A stretch of DNA of 64,000 bases from Octopus sinensis. Taxonomy: Eukaryota. The translations under genes were made by a program, and so were the position numbers. How positions within the stretch are numbered: position 1 is the stretch's first letter; every line of letters starts with the position of its first letter. The notes below the pieces were generated by a model, which worked only from the letters and a program-made list of their open reading frames with translations, was not told where the DNA came from and made no database searches. Shown piece by piece: positions 418 through 60,463 of this stretch. The DNA lies in the NCBI RefSeq assembly GCF_006345805.1, contig NC_043003.1, positions 8,122,001 through 8,186,000 on the forward strand, read 5' to 3'.

Positions 418-603
418 GTTCTATATTTAAGAGATGAGGAATTATGTACATTATTTACTTTATTTACATTAGAAATGAGAACCCTGGTTCGAAATTTCCC
501 CAAGACACCTGATGCAGGCTGGAGGGTATAACAGCCGAAACGTTGTGTTAACAACAAACAAGATGAGGACAAATATCCGTCAAATGTAAATAATGTAAAT
601 AAT
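418..603 (+). mobile_element. Penelope-like terminal repeat fragment with degenerate hammerhead (504-549)
   Basis: Same family as 52217-52575. GACAC-CTGATGC-a-GGCTG..CAGCC-GAAA-CG-TT-GTGTT is a minimal type-I hammerhead with A9C. Confidence 0.75.
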
Positions 604-1400: not shown

Positions 1401-2042
1401 AGCTATCATTTTTATCGATGCTAGAATTGCAGTTCTTATTGTTGCTGTAGCCAGAATCGAATTCCTGGCATAACCAGACGAACTTTCATTCTGAGGAAAT
1501 TTTGGTTGTTGGAGGAGGCGAATGTGCAGAGTGTGATAACGCGAATTGCGCTGATTTGTGAGTTATATTTTTAGTCCGTTTGTTCGTTGCAGAAATACAG
1601 TAATATCAGACAAGAGTAGCATATCTCGTTGTTGATTAAATTTATCATTTGCACAATGATGTGTATTTGCATAGACAAATGTATTACTTGTGATATGAGA
1701 TATCTCAAGCCTGCATCTACTGACTTTCTCTGATCTCAAACGCTTTCAATGCTAAGATGAGTGCTGGAGGAATTGCATCTTGCATTTGTGATGTTATCAA
1801 TGGCCTCTTTAAACCCTCATTCGTAATATCGATTTTGGTTTTTATTGTTTATTGTTTATAGCATTCCTGTTTTTGTTGCTATTCATGAAGCTTTCCAGTG
1901 TATCCTATTTACTAATATTCTTCGATCTTTGGGGAAGCAACATTTTCTCATTGGCATACTGTATACATTTTAATATTTCTACCTCCACCAGTTGTATGCA
2001 TTAAAGTATGTTGGCTTTATTGGCACATAAAAATACTTTTAA

Positions 2043-2262
2043 CCCTTTACTCTCTCAAATGTAAAGCTTATTTACGCACATTGTTTTTAATTAATCATGT
2101 AATTAATCTTGTAGCTTCAAGATTCTGTTGAAGTAATTATTTAATTAATTATTTTTAGAATGTCGTTGTAGGTTGTGGGTGTTAGAGGCTGGTCCTGGGT
2201 GGTCTGAACATAAAAACTGTAGGATATTTGGACCAGATATGGTTAATTTAAACGCTAAAGAG
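2043..2262. mobile_element. piggyBac-like MITE
   Basis: TTAA|CCCTTTA ... TAAAGAG|TTAA: TTAA target duplication and CCC-type terminal inverted repeat. Confidence 0.7.
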
Positions 2263-2579
2263 TTAAACATATAGATGGCGCGGGAGGCACAGATGCAATA
2301 CAAACAAACTTTAGAAGAATTCAAATAAGCTTGTGACATCTTCGACTTGCAAAGAGGCACCCTCGCAGTAGTAAGCTATGGAGAAATGTTAACGAGCTAA
2401 AAAAAAACCAAAGTCAGTTCAGAGCTTTCCCTATAGATTGGTAGATGTATATCAAGCTTCGTTGTCTGCTGTAAATATACTACAATTACAACGAAACAAT
2501 AATAATAAATTACAACCAATGTAACTAAGTACATTTTTATAGAATTTACTGAATATTTTTAATCAGTACTAAGTCAGTT

Positions 2580-2756
2580 AACAGATAATGGAGCGATATT
2601 GCTTTCAGCACTTTAACTCCCAAGTTCAAATCTCACTGCAGTCAACTCAGCTTTTCATTCGACCGAGGCCAATAATTTGAAGCACCAGTCAGGTGGATAG
2701 TATCAGTTATTCACCCATTCTCTCTATATTGCTGGTCTTGTGCCTAAATCAGAAAC

Positions 2757-2813
<57 letters not shown>

Positions 2814-2867
2814 CATCATCATCATCATTATCATTATTATTATTATCATTATTATTATTATCATTAC

Positions 2868-2927
<60 letters not shown>

Positions 2928-3530
2928 CATTATTATTCAGGAACCGAGCTGGCAGAATCGTTAGCACGCCGGGCGAAATACTTTGCGGTATTTCGTCAGC
3001 CTCTACGTTCTGAGTTCATATTCAGTCGAAGTCAACTTTGTCTTTCATCCTTTCGGGGGGGGAGGGAGATTAAATAAGCACCAGTTACGCACTGAGGGTC
3101 GTTGTAACCGACTTAACACCCTCCCCCATCTGCCCTTGTGGCAAAAATTTGGAATCGTTATTATTATCTTTCTTCATATCTTGCAGCTTCATTCCACACA
3201 GCTGGCAAAAATGAGAAAACCCGCGACAGACCACTCAAGGGTGGGCGGATATGTATTCCACAGAAACAGAGAAACCAGCCCTGTGAGTCTATATGACTCA
3301 GGAAGGAACTTTATAAGGTGAGCTGCCAGAATCGTTAGCACACCAGGCAAAATGTTTTGAGGCATTCCGTTCGTCTATACGTTCTGAGGTAAAATTCTGC
3401 CGAGGTAGACTTTGCCTTTCACCATTTCGGAGTAGAAAAAATAAGTACCAGTTGAACACTTGGGTCGAAGTCATTGACGTAATCTCTCTCCATAAAATTG
3501 CTGGCCTTGTGCCAAAGTATGATGCCATTA
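2580..3530 (+). mobile_element. Three SINE family B copies (about 2580-2760, 2940-3165, 3316-3530)
   Basis: GAGCTGGCAGAATCGTTAGCAC head, GAGTTCA B-box, CTTTCATCCTTTCGG body, tails running into ATT repeats. Confidence 0.8.
2758..2936. repeat. (ATT/ATC)n microsatellite
   Basis: Seen directly; follows a SINE B tail. Explains the poly-L, poly-I and poly-N ORFs. Confidence 0.98.
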
Positions 3531-4032
3531 GTATTATTTTTCTCTGAGACTTGGCGAGATCTTCCCATATTTTCTCTACCTGGAAGCAGGTAATAAACAG
3601 AATTCCAATCTCTTGTCGCTCAAAGAGACTAAACCTTCTTTAGGAAACGATCTGAAACCGACACAGTTGCTTTTTGGGTCACTTCAAGCCTGACACTATC
3701 TCTAATGTCTTCAATGTGCTTTTCAAACCGCTTACAAACTCCTCTCGACGCTTAGTGAGGTCTTACACATTACTCGGAAAAGAACTTTTATTTACAAGTA
3801 TTTCTGCTTTTTTATCCAGAAAGAATAAAGTGTTTTTTTAGTAATTTAGAATACCCAGGGAAGTTACAGTTACTAAATATAAAAAAATAGATTCCTTGTT
3901 TAACATTCTACTGATTCTAGCACTTTAGAAATAAACCCAAAAAAATTTAAGTTATAAGTCAAAAAAGGAAGAAACAATAACAATGGCAACAGCAACAGTA
4001 AAATTAGACTTAGTTGTAGTAACAGCAATTGC

Positions 4033-4400: not shown

Positions 4401-5499
4401 AAGGAACAACAACGTCGCTAATATCTAATACAGCGGGTAAGTTTGGTTTGTTTCTGATGAAGCACGGAATAGAGGCTTTTCATAGGAAAGTATAAATATA
4501 ATCCGTACAATTTATCGAAGACCAGTAGTGATTTAATTAAATCTAGGATGATAAAAAAAAGAAAGAAATGAAATATATAAAGTGTAACATAAATATAATT
4601 AATATGTGACGAATCTAGGATTAGGTAGCTAACTGTGGGGATTGGATTTTAAATCTCTCTCGCTGATAGAAGACAAGTAGAGAAGATAAATAAAATATTT
4701 GCGGAGAGAAAAATAATCGAAAATAAATCTAGGACGTGATATACTGAAAATAATTTTGTGAAAACCCATCTAATCAGGCATTTCAGAAATAAAACCTAAG
4801 AAAAAAAATAAGGTAAAATAAATAAAAGTTATTGAAAAATAATGAATTAGCTGAGCAATCAGAACTAAAATGAATATTACGAGGTAAAAATCTCATAAGA
4901 TGTTTTGAGAGAAGATACAAAAGAAATACTTATCCTTTGATTTCAAGAGTATAAAATATGATTGAAGAGACTGGCTAAATGGAAATAAAGAAGAAACCTC
5001 GTTTAAAAATAGAAGGATCTCATTCAAAAGAAAAAGAAAAAAAAAATGAAAGCAAGAAAAGTAGGAATTTTTAAACAGAGGAATATTGACTGTTCGACGA
5101 AAATAGATCGTTCACGTGAGTATTTTGCAGGAACAACGTTTAAAAGTATGTAGAATACGTTGTTAGGAAAATCAACGTAAATCTCTCTTGAAGATAAAAA
5201 AAAATGTACAACAAAGGTCGTATTGTAAATTGTAGTCCTGGATAAAAAAAAAAATGCGCTTTAATGAACTGCTGGAATATTTGTGATCATAGATCTGATA
5301 AAATCTTCAACAACAACAGCCACAACAACAGCAACAACAATTCAGAGATTGAAGTAACGAGACTTACTAAGGAGATTAGGAGAGATGGGGATTTTATGGC
5401 GTTTTATTTTTTTCGTCAGTAGTATTAAAAAATAGGCCATTGGAATGACTTTAGATGCGTAGGTGAGTATTTATAGACTCATGCATACACAGAAAAACG

Positions 5500-5915
5500 T
5501 GCAGAGCTATTACTTGAGATATTCTTGTAAGAAAGGAGCTCGATTTTGACAAAAATACAAAGTTCCATCGTTGGAATGTTGATTACAAAATCAATGTCAC
5601 ATTTTGCACTTTAGAAAAATCTTGTATATTTTTGCTATTCCTCTTACGAGTTGTACTTGTAATAAGCCTGTTAGCTGGCTGGTTACTTTTTCTGAAAATT
5701 TTAGATTTTCTATATAGACATTTACTCCCTAAGCAAAGTGGGCTAATTATTATTGCTACAAAAGTGAAATTATAATCTGAGTATAATATATATGGTGCGA
5801 AACCGAGTATTACCATTCTGATAGAAAACTGATGAAGAATTAGGGACCTTCTGTGTCTTATATATTTATCTGTCGTTGTTTATTTACAATGCATTTTATA
5901 ATTTACTTACACATA
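5500..5915 (+). mobile_element. Degenerate Penelope-like 3' end
   Basis: Translates in part to C..FCTLEKSCIF (like the CxLCxxEKxxI GIY-YIG C-terminus), followed by a hammerhead-like relic GGTGC-GAAA-CCGAG-TA-TTAC, ending at (TA)n. Confidence 0.4.
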
Positions 5916-6024
5916 CATATATATATATAAGAGTGTATAAATTTTTTTTTATACATAAAGATGAGACTATTCACAGCAGTCCTTACATGATAAAAAGGCC
6001 AGTTAAAACCCAAACTACGAAAAA

Positions 6025-6541
6025 GAGTTGTGTTCCCCCAAAATCTACTCACACTTTAAATGACAATTAATTCAATGTCTATTCACTGCGAAACAAGATT
6101 AATGGTTTAAATTTGCAAATACATGGTCAAAAGATGCACTCACTCTCTAAATGATAATAAATGCATTGTTTATTGGCAATGATTAATGGTTAAACACAAA
6201 GTGGATGAACGCATTTTTATAAATGTTCAAACTGATGACCACCACTCTCCAGACACAGCTGATGTCATTGATCAATGGCGTTCCATAGTAACTTTCAGAT
6301 TTTTCAGGAGCCGAGTAGTTGCAACTGTGTCGGTTAATTTAGCTATGTACCTTAAAACTGGTCACATCAGTTCAAACAATTTTGGATGGAAATGCTGCAT
6401 CTTCCTCGCATTTACCCAGGCCTACTCATAAAATTCGACTCTCTGTTCAGGGTGGTCTTCATCTAGAGCGTAGGTTAATACTGGAATGTAACCTTTCCCA
6501 CCAACTCGTTCTAAAATGCGATGGGCGCTTGATTTTGGGAT

Positions 6542-6547
<6 letters not shown>
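6025..6547 (-). mobile_element. Internally deleted Tc1/mariner-superfamily element
   Basis: Minus strand encodes QLCLESGGHQFEHL (typical transposase C-terminus). Imperfect TIRs CCCCAAAATC / GATTTTGGGA, ending at TA. Confidence 0.5.
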
Positions 6548-6584
<37 letters not shown>

Positions 6585-7223
6585 GATGTGTGTGTGTGGT
6601 GTGTGTGTGTGGTGTGTGTGTGTGTGTGTGTATAGTAGAAATATGTTACGAAGAGAAAATATAAAATACCCGTGGAAATGTAAGGGTAAAATATGAAAGA
6701 TCAACGAAAATGCATATTGCAAATAGAAAAAGGCTATTTATGACAGGTAACGACAAATATATACATTTAGATTGACTGAGGTAGTAATACTAGTCATAAA
6801 AGTCATTATTATGAGATGATTATAAGATGATAATAAAGTAAGAGAACAAAACGAACCAATGATTTACGCAAAGCTATTCATCGTTTGAATATATATATCA
6901 CCCATAATAATAATAGTGATTATTACGAAATGGCGTAGCATAACCATTAATTCCTTTTATATACATATAGCTTTACATAGAATAACCTGATAGCAAGCCA
7001 GTAAATGCTTCGAGGAATCCCTTTATATTTACAATTATATATATACAACACACACACACACACAAATATATATATTATATATATTATATATATTATATAT
7101 ATATATATATATATCTATATATATATATATATATATATTGATACAAATGGCAGGACAACAAAAATTAAAGAGACCTCGATAATATGTAAATAGAGGAATT
7201 TATCTGAATAATTGGGAACATAT

Positions 7224-7268
<45 letters not shown>

Positions 7269-7269
<1 letters not shown>

Positions 7270-7606
7270 GAGGTGCAATGGCCCAGTGAATAGGGCAGCG
7301 GACTCGCGAACATAGGATCACGGTTTCGATTCCTAGACCGGCGTTGTGAGTGTTTATTGAGCGAAAGCACCTAAATCTCCACGAGGCCCCTCATCTTTCT
7401 CTCACTCTTACTTCCTGTCTCTGTTGTACCTGCATTTCAAAGGGTCAGCCTTGTCACACTCTGTGTCACGCTGAATCTCCCCCAAGAACTACGTTAAGGG
7501 TACACGTATCTGTGGAGTGCTCAGCCACTTGCACGTTAAATTCACGAGCAGGCTGTTCCGTTGATCGGATCGACTGGAACCCACGTCGTCGTAACCAACG
7601 GAATGT
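7269..7606 (+). mobile_element. tRNA-derived SINE family C
   Basis: TGGCCCAGTG A-box, GGTTTCGATTCC B-box, body CAGCCTTGTCACAC..GAACTACGTTAAGGG..GTCGTCGTAACC shared with other copies. Confidence 0.88.
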
Positions 7607-7627
7607 CACACACACACACACACACAG

Positions 7628-7654
<27 letters not shown>

Positions 7655-7658
<4 letters not shown>

Positions 7659-8445
7659 GAATGGTTGTATACTGTCAATCTAACAAGAACGTGACAGTAG
7701 GGGGTACACCACCGTTGTATAGCCCTAGGAGGCATCGAACACCTCCTGACAGCTTCGACACATTTTTCCCTGTGTCCTTATATACTATACGAAGGGGAGA
7801 CAAACACCCCCAACCGCCGGAACTGCATCTAGGGACACCGTGTTTCAGGATCATTGTCCTTCATCATCGGCCTAGAGTAGCAGACCCGGTCGGCTGGTGA
7901 TATTTGCCTGGACTTCGTATCTGTATATATGTAAACTCAGTGAAGTCTATTCACTGATTATCAAAATACGAAATATTGAATTTCTAAATCTCTCGTAGAG
8001 ACGTGTACGGTGGTGGGGCGATAGAATGGTTGTATACTGTCTATCTAACAAGAACGTGACAGTAGGGGGTACACCACCGTTGTATAGCCCTAGGAGGCAT
8101 CGAACGCCTCCTGACAGCTTAGACACATACGAAGTCCAGGAAAATATCACCAGCCGACCGGTGTCTGCTACTCTCTAGCCGATGAAGGACAATGATCCTG
8201 AAACACGGTGTCCCTAGATGCAGTTCGGCGGTTGGGGGTGTTTGTCTCCCCCCTTCGTATATGTATATAAGGACACAGGAAAAAATGTGTCGAAGCTGTC
8301 AGGAGGCGTTCGATGCCTCCTAGGGTTATACAACGGTGGTGTACCCCCTACTGTCACGTTCTTGTTAGATTGACAGTATACAACCATTCTATCGCCCCAC
8401 CACCGTACATGTCTCTACGAGAGATTTAGAAATTCAATATTTCTT
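7655..8445. mobile_element. Penelope-like pseudo-LTR in nested inverted arrangement with two hammerhead copies
   Basis: Segments ordered A-B / spacer / C-A-B'-A'-C'. Hammerheads at 7829-7875 (-) and 8175-8217 (+). Flanked by (TA)n. Confidence 0.8.
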
Positions 8446-8529
8446 ATATATATATATTTATATATATATACACATATACACACACATATATATATTATAT
8501 TTATATATATACATACTCACATATATATA

Positions 8530-8588
<59 letters not shown>

Positions 8589-9952
8589 TATGTGTGTGTG
8601 TGTGTGTGTGTGTGTGGTTTTATAGTAGAGGTATAAAGAAATACGAATACAATGTGTTAGTCAAGTTTGACCAAGTTATGTCTCTTTATGGCGATTGGCC
8701 TCTTATTTCTCATGAGATCGATAAAATACCAAAGTTTGGCATTATAATCGACTAAAATCCTTCGTTATCTTAAATGTGTTGTCATGTCTCGGTGAGTAGT
8801 TTGCTATGCTATTCATCATTCTGTTCTCCAAGACGTGGTCGAATTGTTTCTCCTTGTTATAGAACAAATAATTGATAGATTTTTATCTATGCCACTCTGA
8901 GTAAATATTAGTCTGCCGTTGTAGCCTGCTTGCAAGAATAAAACTAATATTTCGTTTCCCAACGTCTCAATAGTGTAGCCAGTATTCCATATTAACAGAA
9001 CAGTTCTCATTTATTATGTACACTTGCCGTTGCAAAACTCAATTGTCCTATGTTATTTACACCAACAAGCGTTACAGTTCTTGAAAGTAATACAGTACTC
9101 AAGTGTAATATAATATCTATTCGACTTGGTCAGCTTCAACTATCGGTTGATCTTAACATCAGTAATTATTTCATTCATAATAAGAACTTTTGCTTATGCA
9201 AAATATGTTTTTACTGGCAGAAATTTATTCACGTATTACTAGTTTAACTTATTCTCAAATGACTAAGAGCCACCAGATCACACATGTAAATTATTTAACT
9301 AGTAAAAGATATTGATAATGTAATGATGAGATGCAGACTGTGAGAGAATAAAATATCTCTGAATATTTCCTCTGTATTATCTGAAAATAATTTCTGGTGG
9401 GGAATTACTAAATAGATCTTTGGCAAATTTTATTTAAAGCTATCATCGTTTCATTTATATCTCTAATCTGATATACAAAACAAGTTACTTCTCCTACTTT
9501 CATTAAATATCGCTCTTGTTTTGATATCTTTTAAGTTGATCACCTATTTGATAAAAACAAGCCTGTTAGATACAGACGATACGACGGGTGGTGTACCAGA
9601 TTGTATATATAGTTGAAGATACTAATCAGGTTTTGTCCTTCTATTCCTGATTTTAAATCTCAAATCTAATTTACAATTCATCTTTCATTGATTGATAATA
9701 TAATTATCGGTTATTTATCATTTCATTCTTTCTTTGCTTCATCATAAATGTTATTTCCTTCGGCAACATATTAAATTATTTTACAGGTTTGTCACAAAGC
9801 TTCCATCTTGTATAATGTTGATTTATTTTGGCGTGCTATAAGGTCACTTATGAAGGTAGAAGTTATTTGGAGAGGCTTAATAAGAATTAAGATGAATAAA
9901 ACGAATTGGTGAAATAATTGACGCGATCCATTTCAGAATAATATTCCATCGC

Positions 9953-11659: not shown

Positions 11660-12120
11660 CTATTAATATATAATCATAATTAGCTAATAAGTGGTGATTA
11701 TTTTAATGAGTTGAATTAAAAGAAAATGTTAGACATAAAATATATATATACTAACCGTGGAAAAAAATATTAATTTAGTACATATATTAGGAGTCAATAA
11801 GATATATTAAAAAATAATGGAAGGGACGTAATCAAGATGAACCAAGTAATTTCTCTAGATATATAGAAATATTTGCGATTATTTCATATTTATATATCCC
11901 CATTTCCATTAATATAGAATCATAATTAGCTAGTAAATGGTGATTTGTTTATTTTATGAGTCGAATTAAAATATGTTAGACAAAATATTTACTAACCGTG
12001 GAGAAAAACTTTATCGATTAAGTAAATATATGAGGAGTTAATAATATATATTAAAAAGTAATGGAAGGGAGATAATCAAGAGGAACCAAGTAATTTCCAT
12101 AGATATACAAAATATAAGAT
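11660..12120. repeat. Diverged tandem duplication, about 240 bp unit
   Basis: ATCATAATTAGCTA..ACTAACCGTGG..ATGGAAGGGA..AACCAAGTAATTTC occurs twice. Confidence 0.85.
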
Positions 12121-12124
12121 TTTA

Positions 12125-13053
12125 ATTTTAATGAGACGGCGTACAAAAATTTCAAATAGCCTAAACAAACAGATTGAAAGCAGTGAAAAGTCCCGCCTGA
12201 AAATAAAACTGTTGGAAATTGAAAAATGTCTGCAACTCTCCCATGAAAAGGAAAGAGCAGACAAAGAAGCCTGGGCTATAGACAACATAAAATCTAACCC
12301 CAGAGCTTTCTACAGGTATGCCAAAGAAACAGCTACGGTGCACTGTAGGATAAGGCCACTCCTTGAAAAGGATGGCACACTTACAGGAAAACCAATGAGG
12401 GTAAGTGAAATACTGAATGAGCAATTCAAGAGTGTTTTCACTCCACCCCTCGGGCATTTCCAAATCACCAATCCAACTGACTTCTTTACCACTGCAGATA
12501 TAAAATCAGAGGCGGCGACGATAATTACATCGATATAAAGGAAGACGATGTAATAAAGGCCATAGATGAAATGAAAACAGACTCAGCTATTGGCCCTGAT
12601 GGATTCCCGGCAATCCTCCTAAAAGTATGTAAGAGAGTCCTAGCAAGACCACTGCAGATCCTCTTTCAGAGCTTCCTTGCAGCTGGCAAACTTCCAAAAA
12701 AACTGAAGGAAGGTAAAATATGCCCTATTCATAAAGGAGGTAGCAGAGCAGAGGCCAAGAACTACAGACCTATCTCTCTGACCTCACACATCAGCAAGGT
12801 CATGGAACGAATAGTCAGAAGGAAACTAATCACCTTCCTTGAAGAAAATGACTTGCTGCCTGACACCCAACATGGTTTCCGACCAGGAAGAAGCTGCTTA
12901 ACTCAGCTCCTACAACACTATGACTGGGTGCTGAAACAACTGCTCAACCACTCAAATGTAGAAGTCATATATCTCGACTTTGCAAAGGCTTTTGATAAAG
13001 TCGATCATGGAATGATATGTCACAAACTGCGTGATCTTGGCATAGTTGGCAAG
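12125..13053 (+). pseudogene. CR1-group LINE ORF2 fragment (linker plus N-terminal half of RT), one frameshift near 12520
   Basis: GPDGFP, KNYRPISLTSHISKVMERI, QHGFRPGRSCLTQLL and YLDFAKAFDKVDH. Truncated before YADD. Confidence 0.93.
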
Positions 13054-13112
13054 TTTCGTTGCTCTACTGCTATAGGAAGTGGGTCAGGGGCATTACTTAT
13101 TGAACGCCCCTC

Positions 13113-13158
<46 letters not shown>

Positions 13159-13176
13159 GTATGTATATATATATAC

Positions 13177-13219
<43 letters not shown>

Positions 13220-14284
13220 TATACGATGAATTATCTCAAATATATGAGAGGCGAGTGCAGAGCCCCTTTAAAAAAAATAGTTCATTAAGAAGAAATGTTT
13301 GTCTCGTGACGCCTGTTTCGAAGTCATACAATTTTTAGCTGAGAACTCTTGATATTTCGATAGGACGGGATACTTATACTTGATGGTGATAACGCTTTTT
13401 TTTTGTATATTTCTAATATATTTCATTTGTTAAATTCGTTATATTTAATTTGTTTGCCTTTTGCTCTTGCTGATTGGCTGTTATTTCCATCCTTAACAAC
13501 GTTAAATCGGGCGGCGTTGAGATTCTTTCCTTTTTCTTTTATTGTGTGGGAGCGTGTTTTTAACTAGATCTTTGGACTTTCCAATTAATCTCATTAAGGT
13601 TGTTTATTATGGTGTGCTTATTTCGTTAAGATTTTGTTTTGTGTCGGAATATAATTGTAAAATTTATTCGTTTGGACTAGATAAGGGAATTTAAATGATT
13701 TACTTGTTTGTGAGTGAATTTAACTGTAAAACTAAATGGAGACATTTATTTATAGAGGAATTATTAGCATTTCCTACTTGATTGAATTGGTGTGGCTTGT
13801 AGACGGAGTTTGTTAAACTAATTAAAGACTTTTTTTTTTATTTCAATGGGACATTGTTTTTACTTTTAATTATAATTCCTTACACGCGTTCGTATGCATT
13901 GTTGTTGCCAATTTTTCTTCTAGTGTTCGTATAATTGTCTGGTCTGGACTCAAACATTCTGAATTTTATTTTGGTTACTTTTGACTTTTTACCATTAACG
14001 TCGGCTTGCTATGGCTTGTTGATTATCTATTAAGCTGATTAAAGCGTTTCTATTTTTTTTTATCTGTATAGTTTATTGAAGGTTTCAAAGGGAGGTTGTT
14101 TGCACGCGTGTGAACGTGTACATATATGCGTATGTGGGCATGTGTGTGTGTATATGTGCGTATGTGCGTGGGTGTAGCGAACAGTATTTTTCTTGTATGT
14201 GGTTAAGTATGCTTGTAAATGCAAGTTCGTGTGCTTTGGTATAGGGTTGATGTCTTTGTTTGTGTGTGCACATGTATTCTTTCA

Positions 14285-14686: not shown

Positions 14687-14989
14687 ATACAAAATAAGAA
14701 CATGGAGGAATAGATTCCTTTCAATCATCAACTTCCAAATAATACCAATTCATATAATTTATTAACTAATTAATTAAATTAAATAGGAACATCCAAATCC
14801 AACAGAATAAGACAGAATAAAACAATATACATCAATTAGTATATTTCTTATTGATGTATATTGTTTTATTCTGTTGGATTTGGATGTTCCAATTTAATTT
14901 AATTAATTAGTTAATAAATTATATGAATTGGTATTATCTGGAAGTTGATGATTGAAAGGAATCTATTCCTCCATTTTCTTATTTTGTAT
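14687..14989. repeat. Near-perfect inverted repeat, about 140 bp arms and 15 bp spacer
   Basis: ATACAAAATAAGAA..ATACATCAAT / ATTGATGTAT..TTCTTATTTTGTAT. Starts at (TA)n; probably a Penelope inverted end. Confidence 0.9.
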
Positions 14990-19862: not shown

Positions 19863-20743
19863 TACGAACTTTGATCAACAAGTATCTGAACTGTTGCCAT
19901 AGCAACAATATTAAATCATGCAGGGTAAAACTGCTCGGTGTAGAATGACCTTGATGTCTGTTGTGCGTGCGCTCTAAGTTTTAACGTTCTAGCTCACTGT
20001 TACTGCTTACAGCAGTGCTTGGAAGGAAGGTGCGTAGCTTGTGATCGTCACATTGACCATGACAGAGGAAGTTGTCATGGCGATACCTGCTCAGAGTCCT
20101 ACGCAAGTTTGAAGAAAGTGTATGGAGAGGAGTGTATGAGCCGCAAACATTTCTACGAGCGGTTCAGACGTTTCCAATATGGCCGAAAAACATGTCGGCA
20201 TTTACGAACATTCTGTGAGACGCGCAACCAGCAGAACTGAGAGAACCATTGCCGATGTACGTGCAGCTGTGAGGGGAATTCGCCGAATCACCATCCGTGA
20301 GTTATCAGAGGATGGGCAGATTAGTTACGGTTCAGTTCATTCCATTATCGCTGACGATTTGGGTATGAGAAACGTGTCTGCCAAGTTTGAGTCAAAACTG
20401 CTTTCAGTTGACCAAAAAGACACTCGGATTTCAGTTGGACAAGGTCACCTTGATTGAACCGAGAACGATGAGAACTTTTTGAACTCTGCGCAGCCCTCTG
20501 AGCAGGTATCGCCAAGCTTTTGGCAAAATTTTATTCCGATTCTCTCCTCAACTTTTTTGTCATGATCAATGCAACGATCACACGCTACACACCTTCCTTC
20601 AAAGCAATGTTGTAAATTGCGGAAATAAGCTAGAACGTTAAAACAGAGTGCGCATGTACAGCAGAGATCAAGTGGTTTAACTCTGTTTACTTTAGCTTCG
20701 TTACTATTGCAACAGTCCGGATACTTATTAATAAGTCCACGTA
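19863..20743. mobile_element. Composite mariner relic: two left ends in inverted orientation
   Basis: Plus: GDTCSESYASLKKVYGEECMSR..F.RFQYGR and RRITIREL..SYGSVHSII..MRNVSAKF.SKLL. Minus: KKVEERIGIKFCQKLGDTCSE. TA-CG..AAGTATC.G.ACTGTTGC at both ends. Confidence 0.85.
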
Positions 20744-21096
20744 TTGTGCTTATTAAATAAGAATCATCTCTCACCAGATGGAGTACTTTTTTGCCGATCA
20801 CGGAAGAATACATACGCCATGCAGGTTTTTCCAACTAAATGTTAATCCTCTACCAACATCAAACACCGCGTGACTTTCCTCAACCAATCGCAGCCCAACT
20901 CACGGTAATAACAATCATCTGTCATTCAAATTTGACTCAAACTGTTTTGATCTATACATTTTCAACACACACACACACACACATATAGTATCGGGTTTCA
21001 AAACACAGAGATATGATGGATACAAATTAATTTATTAATTAATTACCATATTCACCTACAGTTGTTTAATTTCTCAACCCAAATGAAAACTACAAT

Positions 21097-21311: not shown

Positions 21312-21426
21312 TGCTTACAGCACCAAGGTTTCACCAGCGGTCACCCATCTAAGTACTAACTAGGCTCAATGTTGCTTAACTTCGGTGATCAGACAAGAAC
21401 CGCTGCTTTCAACGTGAGATAGCCGT
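21312..21426 (-). rRNA. 5S rRNA pseudogene (near full length, diverged)
   Basis: Minus: ACGGCTATCTCACGTTGAAAGCAGCGGTTCTTGTCTGATCACCGAAGTTAAGCAAC..GTTAGTACTTAGATGGGTGACCGC..GGTGCTGTAAGC. Matches metazoan 5S with boxes A and C; no oligo-T terminator. Confidence 0.88.
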
Positions 21427-21427
21427 G

Positions 21428-21779
<352 letters not shown>

Positions 21780-39975: not shown

Positions 39976-40456
39976 TTCACGGACAACAGGACGGCATTTG
40001 TGGGTCAAGTACCGTATTATACCGTACGTAGAAATAACGCTGTTCCAAAACTGTGCGGTTATCTTAATGTAGGTGGAATGCTTGGTGCTTATAATAGAAT
40101 GCTCGGTGCTTATAGTAAAACACCATTTAATAGCGAGCACTACTCATGTATGGATGGGTCCTATATCTGTATGTCAGTATATCTGTATGTCTATATATTA
40201 TGTAGTCTGATACGATATGGTCTCGAACTCTTTAAGTTGATCACAACTATTACCGGATATTGACGAACAGACACACAATTAAATTCTTATACTGTAAAGA
40301 TTATTTCCCGACATAATCTGGCAGTCCTGGTTAGGACGAATGTTACTGCTATTTAGCGCCAGGAAACATCGTCTCCAGTTGGCTATACGGCACACCACCT
40401 ATGTCCTTATATTTTCTCACAAAGGAGTTTAGCGTCCTCACTCGGCGTAACACAAT

Positions 40457-40503
40457 TTCAGCGTACCGCGGTTTCAGGCTTATTTTCCTTCGTCAGCATA
40501 GAA
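40457..40503 (-). ncRNA. Type-I hammerhead motif, intact core, inside Penelope-like repeat (about 40285-40510)
   Basis: Minus: UUCuaUG-CUGACGA-AGG aaaauaag CCU-GAAA-CCGCGG-UA-CGcuGAA. Stem III palindrome ACCGCGGU. Confidence 0.75.
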
Positions 40504-40631
40504 TAACTGCTTGGCAAGAGATGAGACTGCTAAACTCTTGTTCGAAATATATAATTTTCAAAGTGACATGCAGTAACAGATTAAAAAAAAATGTTCTATT
40601 TGAATTCTTATAGTTATACTCTTTATTCTCT

Positions 40632-40928: not shown

Positions 40929-41273
<345 letters not shown>

Positions 41274-42001: not shown

Positions 42002-42227
42002 AAATATAAATGCCAACTAAATGTGGCGGTCCCATAGAGGACGATGCTACTGTTGTTTTTAGCTCCAGGAGAACATCTACAGCTGGCTAATGACACACTA
42101 TGTATGATTATTATTTCTGAGGACAGTGTGTCGTTAGCTAGCTGGAGGGGATGTTCTCCAGGGGCATAAAACATCAGTAGCATCGTTCCTTATGGGACCG
42201 TCACATCTAGTTAGCGATTATATTTTA
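42002..42227. repeat. Imperfect inverted repeat, about 100 bp arms, homologous to 40300-40412
   Basis: GTGGCGGTCCCATA..GCTGGCTAATGACACACT / AGTGTGTCGTTAGCTAGC..TATGGGACCGTCAC. Confidence 0.85.
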
Positions 42228-52413: not shown

Positions 52414-52575
52414 AAGAAGAAGAAGAAGAAGAACATCGAAAAATACCTCAGGAATGAGAACGCAGATTTGAAATTTCCTCCAAGACACCTGATGAAGGCT
52501 GGAGGGTATATCAGCCAAAACGTTGTGTCAACAACAAACTAGATGAGGACAAATATCCGTCAAATATGAATAATG
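52217..52575. mobile_element. Penelope-like inverted terminal repeats with two hammerhead copies and (AAT)n(AAG)n spacer
   Basis: Hammerheads 52299-52343 (-; CUGACGA, GAAG) and 52484-52529 (+; CUGAUGA, G12A). Confidence 0.82.
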
Positions 52576-54150: not shown

Positions 54151-54261
54151 GGCCTGCTCGCTTAGCCAGCGGGGTGGCGTCATTTGAAGGCTAAAACAAT
54201 GCGAAGCGCATTGTGACCAGCGATGTGTAGCAACATCTGATAGCCTGGTCGGTCATGTGAT

Positions 54262-54268
<7 letters not shown>
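54151..54268 (+). other. 118 bp GC-rich structured element inserted in (TA)n
   Basis: TTAGCC/GGCTAA stem, ACAATGCG aag CGCATTGT hairpin, GACCAG..CTGGTC hairpin; TA repeats on both sides. Confidence 0.65.
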
Positions 54269-55529: not shown

Positions 55530-56338
55530 AGTTGTGTCTTATAAGTTATAAGTGACCTATATTTTCTATATCCTTACTACACATCTAATAAGTTGAGCTG
55601 TCAAATTTTGTTATTTCATATTAAAAGAGATGACAGTAGAAGCACCATCAACATACTTTGGATACCGCTTGTCAAGGTTGATTAGTTTATGGAATGCAAT
55701 CGTGATGTGAAGACAATTTAGAAGCTCGCTATGGAATAAAATTTTGTGCGAAACTGGGTAAAATCACTACAGAATCATATAAAATTCTCCGGGTCACTTT
55801 TGGGTTAACTTGTATCAGCCGAGCTTCTGGTTTTCACAAGGACACGAAGCCACGCAAAGCCTGTTCACCGGGAAGCTTATGAGGATCCCCATTTTTGACA
55901 GCAAGGGTATCGTATGCATCCACTGGGTTCCCTCTGGACAGACGGTCGTCAAAGAGCATTGTGTGGAGGTTTTCAAGAGTTCAGGAAGAGATTTTATAGC
56001 GAAAGGTCTGAGTACTTGTATCAGGACAATGCATAGACATTTCATCAGACTACAATTCCATCCTGGTAACTGACCACTTCACAGGGATGGACATCAGGAC
56101 TGTGTCTGACCTTCTCTAGAGTCCAGTCCAAGTTGAAGAATATGTAGAAAGCTGTGACATGGGTCATGGACATTTTCTCTTTGAGAGACTTCCTTGGATC
56201 ATTCACGAAACCGCAGGAGCGCTACTATCGGTGCATTGAAGCAAGGGAATCCTATTTGAAGTACATCAGGATTAAGTACTTCGTTGAAATTATTGTCTCC
56301 CTTGAAAAGTCTCGAAATATCTGGAACGCACGTTGTAT
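55530..56338 (+). mobile_element. Internally deleted mariner
   Basis: GIKFCAKLGK..ESYKIL, KLM..IFDSKGIVCIHWVPSGQTV, YQDNA, RCIEARESY. Confidence 0.82.
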
Positions 56339-56462: not shown

Positions 56463-58063
56463 CTAGCATTATGACCCGGCAACGCTGGGTCATAGTGCTA
56501 GTGCATGTATATATGTGTATGTATATGTGTACATATTACATTTACATCTATATAGATATACATCTACACATAAAATACAAAATACAAAGTTATATCTTGA
56601 TATCGCTAGTGATAACAATACTCAAAATATATAACAGACTGGAATTGTAGTCCCGTCTCTTGCAATTTCGATCAATTGTGTCTTGTCCTCCCTCTTGTAT
56701 AGAAGAGTGGCTACAATCCAGCCTACCTCTACTTCTGGGGGGACGTTTTAAATTTTTATCCGGGACGTCCTACATCCCAGATATAAAGGTAAAAATAAAA
56801 TATTTCCACTTTGCAAGGTTCGAGTTGAGTACTCCCTTGCACGCTCCGTTGACTCGAACCTTGCTTCTATTGTGGCGAATTTACCACCTCTGGTTAGATA
56901 TCTTTCATAGTCGCACCAAGACACTTTTCGATGTTGCTTTCCTCCAGGTGTTCAAATCTTTTTTTTTCCTCTATATTGTATACTTTATAGACAAAAGTTT
57001 TTTCTTTAATTTTATTTTTTATTTCGTTTGGTGGTGTTATCCTAGATTCACCGTCTTTGTCGGTGATCAATCCGAAATAGGTTTGTATTTCTTCCATTTT
57101 AATTTTAATGAGTTCGCGCCCGCAGACGGCTGCAGTGAAATTCATTTTTGGACTTTCTTCTATCGAAGACAATTTTAACAAAAATGCTTCCGTATAAACG
57201 GTGAAAATATTGTCAATTTCCCCAAACAGGGACACAATTCAATTTTTAAACAATAACCAAAGCTCCTTCTCCCAAAGGGGGAGGGTTACAGTTTACAACT
57301 ATTTAACAAATGCAACACAACAACGTTTCTCTTACGAGGAACCAACAAACGTGATAACAATAGTTAAACAGTAATAATAATAACAACAAACCCTACGGTG
57401 AATCAAAAAGCAGTACTCAGTTGAAGCTATAGTTCTTTATGGATAAGAAATAAACCAACAGCAGAACTCAGTAGAAGCGGCTGTTCGAGAAAACAGATTT
57501 ACATACAGCCAAACTTCATATAGATACTTAATTCTAGCTAATTAACACATAATCTAACGTAAAAGCCGTGGTAAAGGGTATGTGCACAGCTCCACCTGAA
57601 ATGTTCCATTTCTGCATATTAATTTTATTTTTAATTTATTCCTATTCATGTGAAACCCCTTATTCAAGTTCAAGTCATTGATGCAATTTTATACCAGTTG
57701 CTATTTTTACTTTCAATTATTATGTTACGATTTAATTATCATATTATACTTTAGTTTGAGTTTAATTATTACTTACTACATATAATTCAATTGTTATTAT
57801 TATCTCTAATTTTTATTGTTAAAGTGAAAGTATCTGACATAAAATAGAAAAATGTTTTTGTTTCACTTTTAACACCTAATACTGAAATAGTGGAGAAGAT
57901 ATGATATTGCGTTGGGCTCGCCCTAGGCAAGAAGCTGCACTTTTTTCCCCCATGAAACTACATGAACCCTGAGTAAGGCATGTATAAAATTTGAATGAAA
58001 TTGGTTGTGTAGTTCTCAAGTTTTAGGGCATCACACAGACAGACAGACACACATTCTCAGTTT

Positions 58064-59419: not shown

Positions 59420-60463
59420 GCCACGTGACGCGTATTTGTCTTGCAGTCCTTCTTTCCTGTTCGTCGATTTTTACGATGGTTGAAACGAAGGAACATCGTG
59501 CTTCAGTGAAAGTCTGTTTTACAGTTTACAAGGACGCTGCTATGAGCAAAACACAAGTTTACGAGTAGATTTCGCGCTTTAGGAATGGTCACTTGTCGCT
59601 TGAAAACCAACCTCGTTCAGGGCGGACGTTGACCTCACGAACGAATGAAAACATCATGAAAATCCATGAACTGATCTTGGAGGACAGTAACACCAAAATT
59701 TAACGAACTTGATATGTATGATTGGTGTGGGTCCTGGAGCTCCTGCCAGCGACTTTCGGGCTAGAAATTGCCAATGAAAAGAGTTGCAGCAAAATTTGTG
59801 CCTCGCTTGCTCACGCGAGATCAAAAGCAGTTGATCCGGACATTTCATCGTTCTCAACAGAATGAAGGAGATATTGAACAACTGAAGTCCGCGTGCATTT
59901 TTGTTCAGCTGAAAGCAGTTTGGGCATAAACTTGGCAGACACTCATCTCATACTCAAAACTTCAGTGATAATGGACTGAACAGAATCGTAACTATCCTTC
60001 CCATCCTCTGATAATTTACAGATGGGGATTTGACGATCTCCCCTCACAGCTGCACGCACATCTGTTTTTTCTCAGTTCTGCTGGTTTGGCGTCTCCCATA
60101 ACATTCATCAATATCGATATTTTTTTCTGCCATCTTGGAAACGTCTGAACCAATCGTACACTTGTGTACACCACTCTCCATACATTCATGTACCTAATTC
60201 CATTCACTTTCTGCAATTTTGCGTAGGCCTCTGAGTAGTTATCGCCATGGCAATTTTTCCTATCATGGTCAATGCGGCCATCACACACTTCACAACTTCC
60301 TTCCAAGCCCTGTTGTAAACAGCAGAAGTGAACTGGGACATTAAATCTTAGTGCACATTCACAGCAGAGTTTTAATGTCAATCAGTGCCGAGCGGCTTTA
60401 TTCTGCGTACTTTAGCTTCGTTACTATGACAACAACCCGGATATTTATTGATCAGACCTCGTA
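59420..60463. mobile_element. Two convergent mariner 5' halves
   Basis: Plus: MSKTQVYE*.SRFRNG..PRSGR..MKRVAAKFVPRLL. Minus: EAYAKLQKV..SVQSII..VSAKFMPKLL with TIR ending CCTCG|TA. Confidence 0.82.

What the first reader, a model, noticed from the sequence alone, without database searches (positions are those of the whole stretch)
8262..8358. Unassigned conserved RNA-structure motif downstream of hammerheads, shared by different repeat families
Seen: four loci with otherwise dissimilar sequence share one layout, (AUAAGGACA)..UCG-N-AGCY-NN-[variable hairpin]-RRGCUA-WACA-[second hairpin]. At 8287(+): GUGUCG AAGCU GUC AGGAGGC guucgau GCCUCCU A GGGUUA UACAAC GGUGGUG (GGGCUA in the inverted copies). 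At 40412-40318(-): GUGCCG UAUAGCC AA CUGGAGAC gau GUUUCCUG GCGCUA AAUAGC AGUAACA. At 42119(+) and its inverted arm: GUGUCG UUAGCU AG CUGGAG..CUCCAG GGGCAUAAAACAUC AGUAGCA. At 54154(+): CUCG CUUAGCC AG CGGGGUGGCGUCAUUUG AA GGCUAAAACAA. The apical stem changes sequence but keeps pairing. In two loci the motif starts about 45-70 nt 3' of a hammerhead on the same strand. Inference: a second cis-acting RNA module of Penelope-like terminal repeats (RT recognition or priming signal, or an unrecognised ribozyme). It fits no SECIS, twister, pistol, HDV or hairpin consensus that I know.
Basis: partly seen in the sequence, partly recalled or inferred. Interest (0 to 1): 0.8.

Follow-up and report, generated by a model that had tools for sequence, protein, structure and literature searches.

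The report
Folded start-site domain of hammerhead retrozymes
Three of the four flagged repeats are related ~360-base non-coding jumping elements that carry a hammerhead ribozyme motif and a conserved predicted RNA fold around the two points where their genomic copies end, so the fold likely tells a Penelope-type reverse transcriptase where to start copying; the fourth is a chance look-alike in an unrelated repeat.

Summary
The motif is real at three of four loci, but it is neither an isolated module nor shared by unrelated families. It is the 5' half of a ~155-nt multi-helix domain in one superfamily of colinear, ~360-nt, non-coding hammerhead repeats (non-LTR retrozymes; at least eight subfamilies, 8,872 exact core matches in the 2.7-Gb genome). 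A model built without family A finds it (47 bits). Helices P1, P2/P3, a long-range helix P4, P6 and P7 show compensatory changes (13 of 29 pairs across seven subfamilies). Insertions end at two fixed places, mostly on (TA)n: one inside the ring closed by P4, 7-9 nt before its 3' strand, one about 50 nt later. Direct plus inverted copies complete the Penelope insertion signature. P1-P3 is more conserved in sequence than the hammerhead (72% vs 64%). Best reading (0.6): a recognition and start-site scaffold for a Penelope-type reverse transcriptase. No Rfam match. Against: no autonomous Penelope element carrying the domain was found, no RNA evidence, one genome studied in depth. Locus 54154 is the 3' half of a tRNA-type SINE and scores as background (E=3). 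New variant of a known kind; interest 0.55.

The parts
8130..8447 (+). Direct copy of a ~365-nt non-coding hammerhead repeat unit (subfamily A), ending at 3' end site 2 and joined to (TA)n
8179..8212 (+). Type I hammerhead motif (core with C at position 4, 4-bp stem II, short stem III with near-palindromic loop, predicted cleavage after 8212) at the tip of a long predicted rod
   Evidence: activity not tested
8272..8291 (+). Hairpin P1
8294..8327 (+). Hairpin P2/P3 with asymmetric internal loop; with P1 the most sequence-conserved segment of the unit
8333..8341 (+). 5' strand of long-range helix P4
   Evidence: 5 of 7 pairs with change on both sides
8350..8377 (+). Hairpin P6 inside the ring closed by P4
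8388..8392 (+). 3' end site 1 of genomic copies (predicted unpaired; 2 bases shared with the (TA)n target)
8398..8406 (+). 3' strand of long-range helix P4, first part of the optional ~55-nt tail
8412..8447 (+). Tail hairpins P7 and P8 and 3' end site 2
7656..7917 (-). Inverted copy of the unit (hammerhead and motif) that ends at site 1, without tail, on (TA)n
7918..8128 (-). Second inverted, 5'-truncated copy (motif, tail and start of the next unit's linker)
40294..40590 (-). Old subfamily C copy: hammerhead motif 40496-40464, motif from 40406, ends at site 1 (no tail)
   Evidence: 82.6 bits
42119..42283 (+). Old 5'-truncated subfamily B copy; a deletion removes the 3' strand of P4; no hammerhead left in this copy
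   Evidence: 66.8 bits
42000..42101 (-). Inverted arm of the subfamily B insertion, ending near site 1
   Evidence: 80.4 bits
54151..54268 (+). Not part of the system: 5'-truncated 3' half of a ~310-nt SINE with a tRNA-like head; only a superficial likeness to P2

Best explanation
The motif is the conserved 5' half of a predicted multi-helix RNA domain in a superfamily of ~360-nt non-coding hammerhead repeats (non-LTR retrozymes), and it likely serves as the recognition and start-site scaffold for a Penelope-type reverse transcriptase supplied in trans. Shown: colinear units, hammerhead motif, covarying helices, two fixed 3' ends joined mostly to (TA)n, direct and inverted partial copies. Inferred steps: (1) tandem copies are transcribed and would be cut by the hammerhead, probably as a dimer, to give multimers or circles; (2) P1-P2/P3 and P4 would be bound by the Penelope RT-endonuclease protein; (3) the endonuclease would nick (TA)n and the DNA end would be placed on the unpaired linker inside the P4 ring (site 1) or just behind the tail hairpins (site 2), helped by a 2-base AT match; (4) copying runs back through the motif and the hammerhead and can pass into the preceding unit, which needs a circular or uncut multimeric template; (5) template switches give the inverted 5' copies. 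For copies that start at site 1, the 3' strand of P4 lies on the RNA but is not copied.
For: Ends: in subfamily A 43 of 49 alignment ends short of the query end fall on two sites (16 at site 1, 27 at site 2; 35 of the 43 on a TA run), in G 27 of 35, in J 26 of 34; older C and B show the same two clusters more diffusely. Site 1 lies 7-9 nt before the P4 3' strand in the printed copies and majority sequences of A, B, C, E, G, J. Four public DNA runs under four organism labels show depth peaking just before site 1, AT-rich loose ends at 8444 in all four and listed at 8392 in one. Inverted pairs in 18/30, 7/28, 9/23, 2/4, 8/18, 14/19 loci of A, C, B, E, G, J. Structure: RNAalifold without a given structure finds P1, P2, P3, P4, P7 on 14 copies of 7 subfamilies; with P6 added, 92% of cells pair and 13 of 29 pairs change on both sides, against 5.1 in shuffles and at most 7 in slid controls; on 142 model-aligned matches 87% pair, covariation 0.295 vs 0.162 (alignment fitted to the model); separate folds of family majorities give the same helices in 7 of 8; z -4.2 for 8266-8446. 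P1-P3 is the best-conserved segment between six subfamilies: 72% against 64% for the hammerhead, 54-60% for the rest, about 49% shuffled. Literature: the Anolis Penelope RT starts at two internal sites that bound the 'tail', in an AC-rich stem-loop downstream of the hammerhead, needs RNA 3' of the start sites and does not need hammerhead cleavage (PMC11167929, parts 1-2 read).
Against: No autonomous Penelope element with this domain at its own 3' end was found: R1 and R2 over GIY-YIG and RT loci of three to four Penelope families hit only separate retrozyme insertions, and no PLE coding region leads into a unit in the loci held. The compensatory changes come from few lineage events, many on the branch to subfamily A, and the shuffle control ignores relatedness; P1 and P7 hardly vary. 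A fixed distance between an end and a helix follows from colinear descent alone. The opposite strand also folds better than shuffles (z -3.1). A similar long-range helix is predicted round site 1 of one autonomous family but shows 0 of 29 pairs with change on both sides, and a second autonomous family shows none. Nothing here shows transcription, cleavage, circles or protein binding.
Confidence: 0.6

Rival explanations
1. The domain serves the RNA's life before copying: it stabilises the circle, binds a host protein or ligase, or keeps the hammerhead rod folded, and the two ends are set by local AT-rich sequence that matches the (TA)n target.
For: Whole circular monomers fold far better than shuffles (z -7.7, -5.9, -2.7 for A, J, G). 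Animal retrozyme circles are described as highly self-paired and probably protein-bound (PMC7229834, passages and discussion). Both end sites share A/T bases with the target.
Against: General stability does not need sequence conservation above that of the hammerhead in P1-P3; units hold other AT-rich stretches that are rarely used as ends.
Confidence: 0.2
2. The likeness is inherited from the common ancestor with no special role beyond that of any part of a folded retrozyme.
For: All subfamilies are homologous and colinear; few independent substitution events underlie the covariation.
Against: Rod and linker segments of the same units have drifted to near-background identity (54-57% vs 47-51% shuffled) while P1-P3 kept 72%; P4 was rewritten on both strands in A and G and still pairs.
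Confidence: 0.08
3. P1-P3 is an internal promoter or a decayed tRNA-like module that drives transcription of the tandem units.
For: Sequence-level conservation would fit a DNA element; the start of P2 in B, C, E looks loosely like a tRNA A box (recalled consensus, read by eye), and the SINE at 54154 has a similar stretch. Earlier unchecked notes describe tRNA-bearing Penelope-type repeats in other genomes.
Against: ARAGORN finds no tRNA in 10 loci covering six subfamilies and the SINE; the A-box-like bases differ in A, G and J; runs of four or more T, which would stop RNA polymerase III, are visible in the printed units of A, B, F, G and J (read by eye); paired changes and G-U pairs point to an RNA fold. 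No formal promoter-box scan was run.
Confidence: 0.07
4. The domain is a second, undescribed self-cleaving or ligating ribozyme.
For: Multi-helix fold with conserved unpaired bases next to a hammerhead; no Rfam match.
Against: Each unit already keeps a hammerhead core, with C3-G8, U3-A8 and U3-G8 variants across subfamilies; no pseudoknot was evident by eye; ends map to two sites explained by the Penelope tail; 5' breakpoints of partial copies are scattered.
Confidence: 0.05

Closest known systems
Animal non-LTR retrozymes (Cervera & de la Pena 2020, PMC7229834; Li, Clavereau & Pollet 2026 preprint 10.64898/2026.07.22.740005)
   Same: Short non-coding tandem units (mussel 350-390 bp; here 340-365), one type I hammerhead per unit with a short palindromic stem III loop, many families, proposed to be moved by Penelope elements.
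   Different: The passages and sections read describe only the hammerhead and overall self-pairing, no conserved downstream domain and no mapping of two 3' ends or inverted copies; in Xenopus the retrozymes match pLTRs of autonomous elements, here no such partner was found. The 2020 supplement (sequences, folds) could not be read and may bear on this.
pLTR and 'tail' of endonuclease-bearing Penelope-like elements; internal initiation by the Anolis Poseidon protein (Frangieh et al. 2024, PMC11167929; Arkhipova et al. 2013, PMC3846280; Craig et al. 2021, PMC8557442)
   Same: Direct plus inverted partial copies, optional tail between two 3' ends, AT-rich targets, start sites downstream of a hammerhead in a structured region.
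   Different: Tail here is about 50-55 nt (30-40 nt described); the element is non-coding; the Anolis work names an AC-rich stem-loop but, in the parts read, no covarying long-range helix. Sequence likeness to that stem-loop was not tested.
3' stem-loops shared by SINEs and their LINE partners (as described in PMC4824008, passages)
   Same: A structured RNA signal with compensatory changes that lets a non-coding element use another element's reverse transcriptase.
   Different: Those signals lie at the RNA 3' end and are copied; here the signal encloses an internal start site and part of it can stay uncopied.
Telomerase RNA template domain (recalled; Penelope RTs are the sister group of TERT per PMC8557442 abstract)
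   Same: A single-stranded start region inside a ring closed by a long-range helix, with neighbouring hairpins that could bind the enzyme.
   Different: No pseudoknot, no repeated copying of a short template, no homology tested: an analogy only.

Membership tests
Non-LTR retrozyme | Type I hammerhead motif in the unit | tested here: met
   Motif-level match 48-59 nt before P1 in most long copies of A (34/38), J (19/31), C (11/17), E (3/3); 14 of 30 matches in an unselected sample; seen in B, F, G copies. Rfam did not detect these hammerheads.
Non-LTR retrozyme | Short (about 150-450 nt) tandem non-coding unit | tested here: met
   Units of 365, 361 and 340 nt; same-strand repeats in 23/30, 20/28, 14/19 loci of A, C, J; mostly monomers to dimers, no long arrays seen; no PLE protein match leading into units
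Non-LTR retrozyme | Self-cleavage and accumulation as circular RNA | not testable with these tools
   No RNA holder on record; only contigs of runs guessed to be RNA
Penelope-type insertion | Direct plus inverted partial copies | tested here: met
   58 of 122 loci of six subfamilies have an inverted pair
Penelope-type insertion | Optional tail between two fixed 3' ends, AT-rich target | tested here: met
   one target duplication of 9-14 bp seen by eye in L256
Penelope-type insertion | Homology to the pLTR of an autonomous element in the same genome | tested here: inconclusive
   None among the loci of three to four families examined; each protein or family search scored only its best 150 of 5,029-8,851 candidates
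Rfam families (incl. SECIS, twister, twister-sister, pistol, hatchet, HDV-like, hairpin) | Covariance-model match over the motif | tested here: not met
   No hit over the motif in the window at E<=1 or in 8 loci at E<=0.5; sensitivity is limited, the hammerheads were missed too
This domain (locus 54154 as member) | P1, P4, tail, upstream hammerhead, two ends, inverted copies, model score | tested here: not met
   8.9 bits, E=3; no R1 or R2 hit on this repeat in 22-24 loci; 0 of 24 loci with inverted pair, single 3' end; folding z -1.0
tRNA-derived SINE (locus 54154) | tRNA-like head with A and B boxes upstream in full copies | tested here: inconclusive
   17 of 27 matches start at one common head with box-like words read by eye (consensus recalled); ARAGORN calls no tRNA; LINE partner not sought

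The most novel reading that the evidence does not exclude
The ring closed by P4, with the start site 7-10 nt before its 3' strand and protein-binding hairpins beside it, is the general template architecture read by Penelope reverse transcriptases, kept in unusually stable form by these parasites, and is a structural counterpart of the template domain of telomerase RNA. One unrelated autonomous Penelope family in this genome is predicted to have a long-range helix in the same place relative to its own first end.
Probability: 0.15. Interest if true: 0.85.

Novelty: new variant of a known kind. Interest (0 to 1): 0.55.

Why it matters
How Penelope reverse transcriptases, the closest retroelement relatives of telomerase, choose an internal start site is open; the one in vitro study located only a broad binding region. 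A short parasite family with thousands of copies, two sharply mapped ends and a covarying fold round them gives a ready set of helix-breaking and compensatory mutants to test. It also adds direct genomic evidence (tail, two ends, inverted copies) that animal retrozymes are integrated by Penelope machinery, which the cited work proposed from co-occurrence and pLTR homology.

Tried and rejected
Rfam scans of the window and 8 loci: no relevant hit. Search for the autonomous partner: GIY-YIG family search and two protein searches of the genome, 13 longer stretches round long ORFs, models R1 and R2 over these loci: not found. Apparent PLE-coding neighbours of motif copies (L109, L256, L266) are independent insertions or nested fragments. 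The covariance models could be run only over fetched loci, not over the whole genome, so remote subfamilies may be missed. One degenerate pattern in metagenome contigs: 0 matches, no information on other animals. Sequencing runs: no RNA holder listed; contigs of four runs guessed to be RNA cover the unit but cannot show ends, strand, level or circles. Locus 54154 as a Penelope-moved SINE: rejected; seven copies truncated at the same place reflect how those loci were selected. 5' breakpoints at the hammerhead cleavage site: no pile-up among the partial copies listed (read by eye). No formal scan for polymerase III boxes or ribozyme core words was run, so those rivals rest on Rfam, ARAGORN and reading by eye. 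Literature searches for a prior description listed none beyond the papers cited; the library lacks most subscription papers, one relevant paper on dimeric Penelope hammerheads was not held, and Repbase/Dfam entries were not available. Earlier findings: none similar by sequence.

Full report
Setting. The window lies in a 2.7-Gb animal genome rich in (TA)n microsatellites. The animal group was not determined; the repeat types look like those of a cephalopod from memory.

What the loci are. A genome search with 8130-8454 gave 96 matches in the 40 best of 1,793 candidate places. The copies form a ~365-nt unit that occurs as direct, tandem and inverted partial copies. Searches with the 40412 and 42119 loci gave 2,176 and 413 candidates. 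These two and further types found in flanks (labelled B, C, E, F) cross-match at 68-78%. A covariance model from 18 copies of B, C, E, F (R1) finds subfamily A in the window at 47 bits, E 9e-8, and more subfamilies in fetched loci (G, H, J, K). A 17-base core pattern matches 8,872 times genome-wide, its reversed control 0 times, and it cannot match A or G. One natural unit each of six subfamilies is colinear: linker and rod 90-95 nt, hammerhead 31-34, second rod strand 50-59, P1-P3 58-64. The 'different families' are thus one old lineage of non-coding hammerhead repeats, which fits the description of non-LTR retrozymes (PMC7229834: passages and discussion section read, supplement unreadable; preprint 10.64898/2026.07.22.740005: parts 1-3 of 5 read).

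Hammerhead. A type I hammerhead motif with a short, palindromic stem III loop lies 48-59 nt before P1 in 34 of 38 A, 19 of 31 J, 11 of 17 C, 3 of 3 E and 2 of 9 B motif copies caught by the script's anchors; the script found none of 28 in G, where the motif is visible in printed copies. Core variants include C3-G8, U3-A8 and U3-G8. The fixed spacing is explained by the long rod that extends stem I and ends just before P1. Activity was not tested, and subfamily A carries C at position 4 of the core.

The structure. Folding 8266-8446 gives P1, P2/P3, a 9-bp long-range helix P4 that closes a ring with hairpin P6 and an unpaired A/C-rich linker, then two tail hairpins (z -4.2). RNAalifold on 14 copies from 7 subfamilies, given no structure, returns P1, P2, P3, P4 and P7, 12 of 25 pairs with change on both sides. 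With P6 added, 92.4% of cells pair and 13 of 29 pairs change on both sides, against 5.1 in shuffles and 1-7 in slid controls; P4 has 5 of 7. On 142 model-aligned matches from 88 of the loci held, 87% pair (fitted alignment). Majority sequences fold separately into the same helices in 7 of 8 subfamilies (F failed with 2 copies; C and K rest on one copy each). Limits: relatedness inflates these counts, many changes lie on the branch to A, P1 and P7 vary little, one B copy folds differently on its own, and the opposite strand also folds well (z -3.1). In primary sequence P1-P3 is the most conserved segment (mean 72%, range 63-85%) ahead of the hammerhead (64%), tail (60%), ring (58%) and rod or linker (54-57%), shuffled 47-51%.

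Link to termini. Leaving out alignments that reach the query end, 43 of 49 ends in A, 27 of 35 in G and 26 of 34 in J fall on two sites, mostly running into TA repeats. Site 1 lies in the unpaired linker 7-9 nt before the 3' strand of P4; site 2 lies about 50-55 nt further, behind the tail hairpins. Inverted pairs occur in 58 of 122 loci. Contigs of four DNA runs under four organism labels show depth rising to a peak just before site 1 and AT-rich loose ends at 8444 (all four) and 8392 (listed for one); the three common variants that fall in P2, P3 and P4 positions keep or improve pairing, besides 8326, where the window copy is the odd one. This is the Penelope insertion signature of inverted pLTR and optional tail (PMC3846280 and PMC8557442, passages read), which in Anolis corresponds to two internal RT start sites in a structured region behind the hammerhead, with hammerhead cleavage dispensable (PMC11167929, parts 1-2 of 4 read; supplements searched by words only). 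Many copies run through the predicted cleavage site into the previous unit, so the template was likely circular or an uncut multimer.

The fourth locus. 54151-54268 is the 3' part of a ~310-nt repeat whose full copies begin with a tRNA-like head. It lacks P1, P4, tail, hammerhead and inverted copies (0 of 24 loci) and has one 3' end. A short model of P2/P3 from 20 copies of 8 subfamilies (R2) scores it 8.9 bits, E=3, while the six true window copies score 29-45 bits. A relaxed descriptor matches 1.5 times per shuffled window; a strict one made afterwards from family B matched 0 times in 100 shuffles. I treat it as a probable chance likeness.

The missing partner. The genome holds many autonomous Penelope elements. 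Those examined carry minimal hammerheads where one was recognised, and two families show their own two 3' ends, but the models find the domain only in separate retrozyme insertions near them. One family has a tail of similar length and a predicted long-range helix in the same position, without covariation. Only the best 150 candidates of each search were scored, so the partner may be unseen, extinct, or may recognise shape and not sequence.

Known families. Rfam gives no match over the motif, though it also misses these hammerheads. ARAGORN finds no tRNA. Nine literature searches listed no description of such a domain; PMC4209133 (part 1 of 4), PMC6765202, PMC13282606, PMC4758252 and PMC4824008 (passages) were also seen and add none. 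Earlier notes of this scan on other genomes raised the tRNA-module rival and a reference; they were not tested and are not counted as support.

Verdict. A real, covarying RNA domain in a large retrozyme superfamily, wrapped round the internal start site of Penelope-type integration. Most likely an RT recognition and start-site scaffold (0.6); RNA stability or host-protein binding (0.2), neutral inheritance (0.08), promoter (0.07) and second ribozyme (0.05) are the rivals. New variant of a known kind, interest 0.55.

Noticed in passing
L143:174-1610 and 1532-3874 (+); also L147: An abundant endonuclease-bearing Penelope family has two overlapping open frames (479 aa, no convincing Pfam hit; 781 aa with RT and GIY-YIG). 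The second lies in the -1 frame, and the overlapping peptides imply a U-rich slippery heptamer in the overlap, suggesting a programmed -1 frameshift; canonical endonuclease-bearing Penelope elements are described with a single ORF.
   Followed up: partly
L179-L203, about 900 nt behind the GIY-YIG stop: A second autonomous Penelope family (RT motifs look Nematis-like, recalled) has a U3-A8 minimal hammerhead, two 3' ends about 55 nt apart and a predicted long-range helix whose 3' strand begins about 10 nt after the first end; no covariation among 9 copies.
   Followed up: partly
window 509-549 (+), 41002-41030 (+), 52489-52530 (+): Minimal hammerhead motifs of two other repeat families that lack the domain; the 41002 family ends on (TA)n about 110 nt later.
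   Followed up: partly
window 21312-21430 (-): 5S rRNA-like copy above the Rfam gathering score (80 bits), next to a long four-base microsatellite: pseudogene or head of a 5S-derived repeat.
   Followed up: no
window 12062-13338 (+): Broken LINE-type reverse transcriptase fragment (RVT_1, E 1e-13).
   Followed up: partly
L256:800-1650: A subfamily F insertion (inverted plus direct copies) sits inside a decayed Penelope RT gene with a 9-14 bp target duplication and a few bases shared with the target at site 1.
   Followed up: partly
window 14687-14989: Near-perfect palindrome, 141-nt arms, 94% complementary, 21-nt spacer.
   Followed up: no
window 56651-57238 (-): Repeat with an open-frame remnant without Pfam hit; a similar stretch lies in L150.
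   Followed up: no
window 19944-20834, 55700-56200, 59654-60381: Open-frame remnants that read like Tc1/mariner transposase pieces (likeness recalled, not tested).
   Followed up: no
L064:1258-1321 (+): The head of the SINE gives a sub-threshold Rfam match to the bacterial t44 RNA (26.6 bits, gathering 44), probably chance.
   Followed up: no
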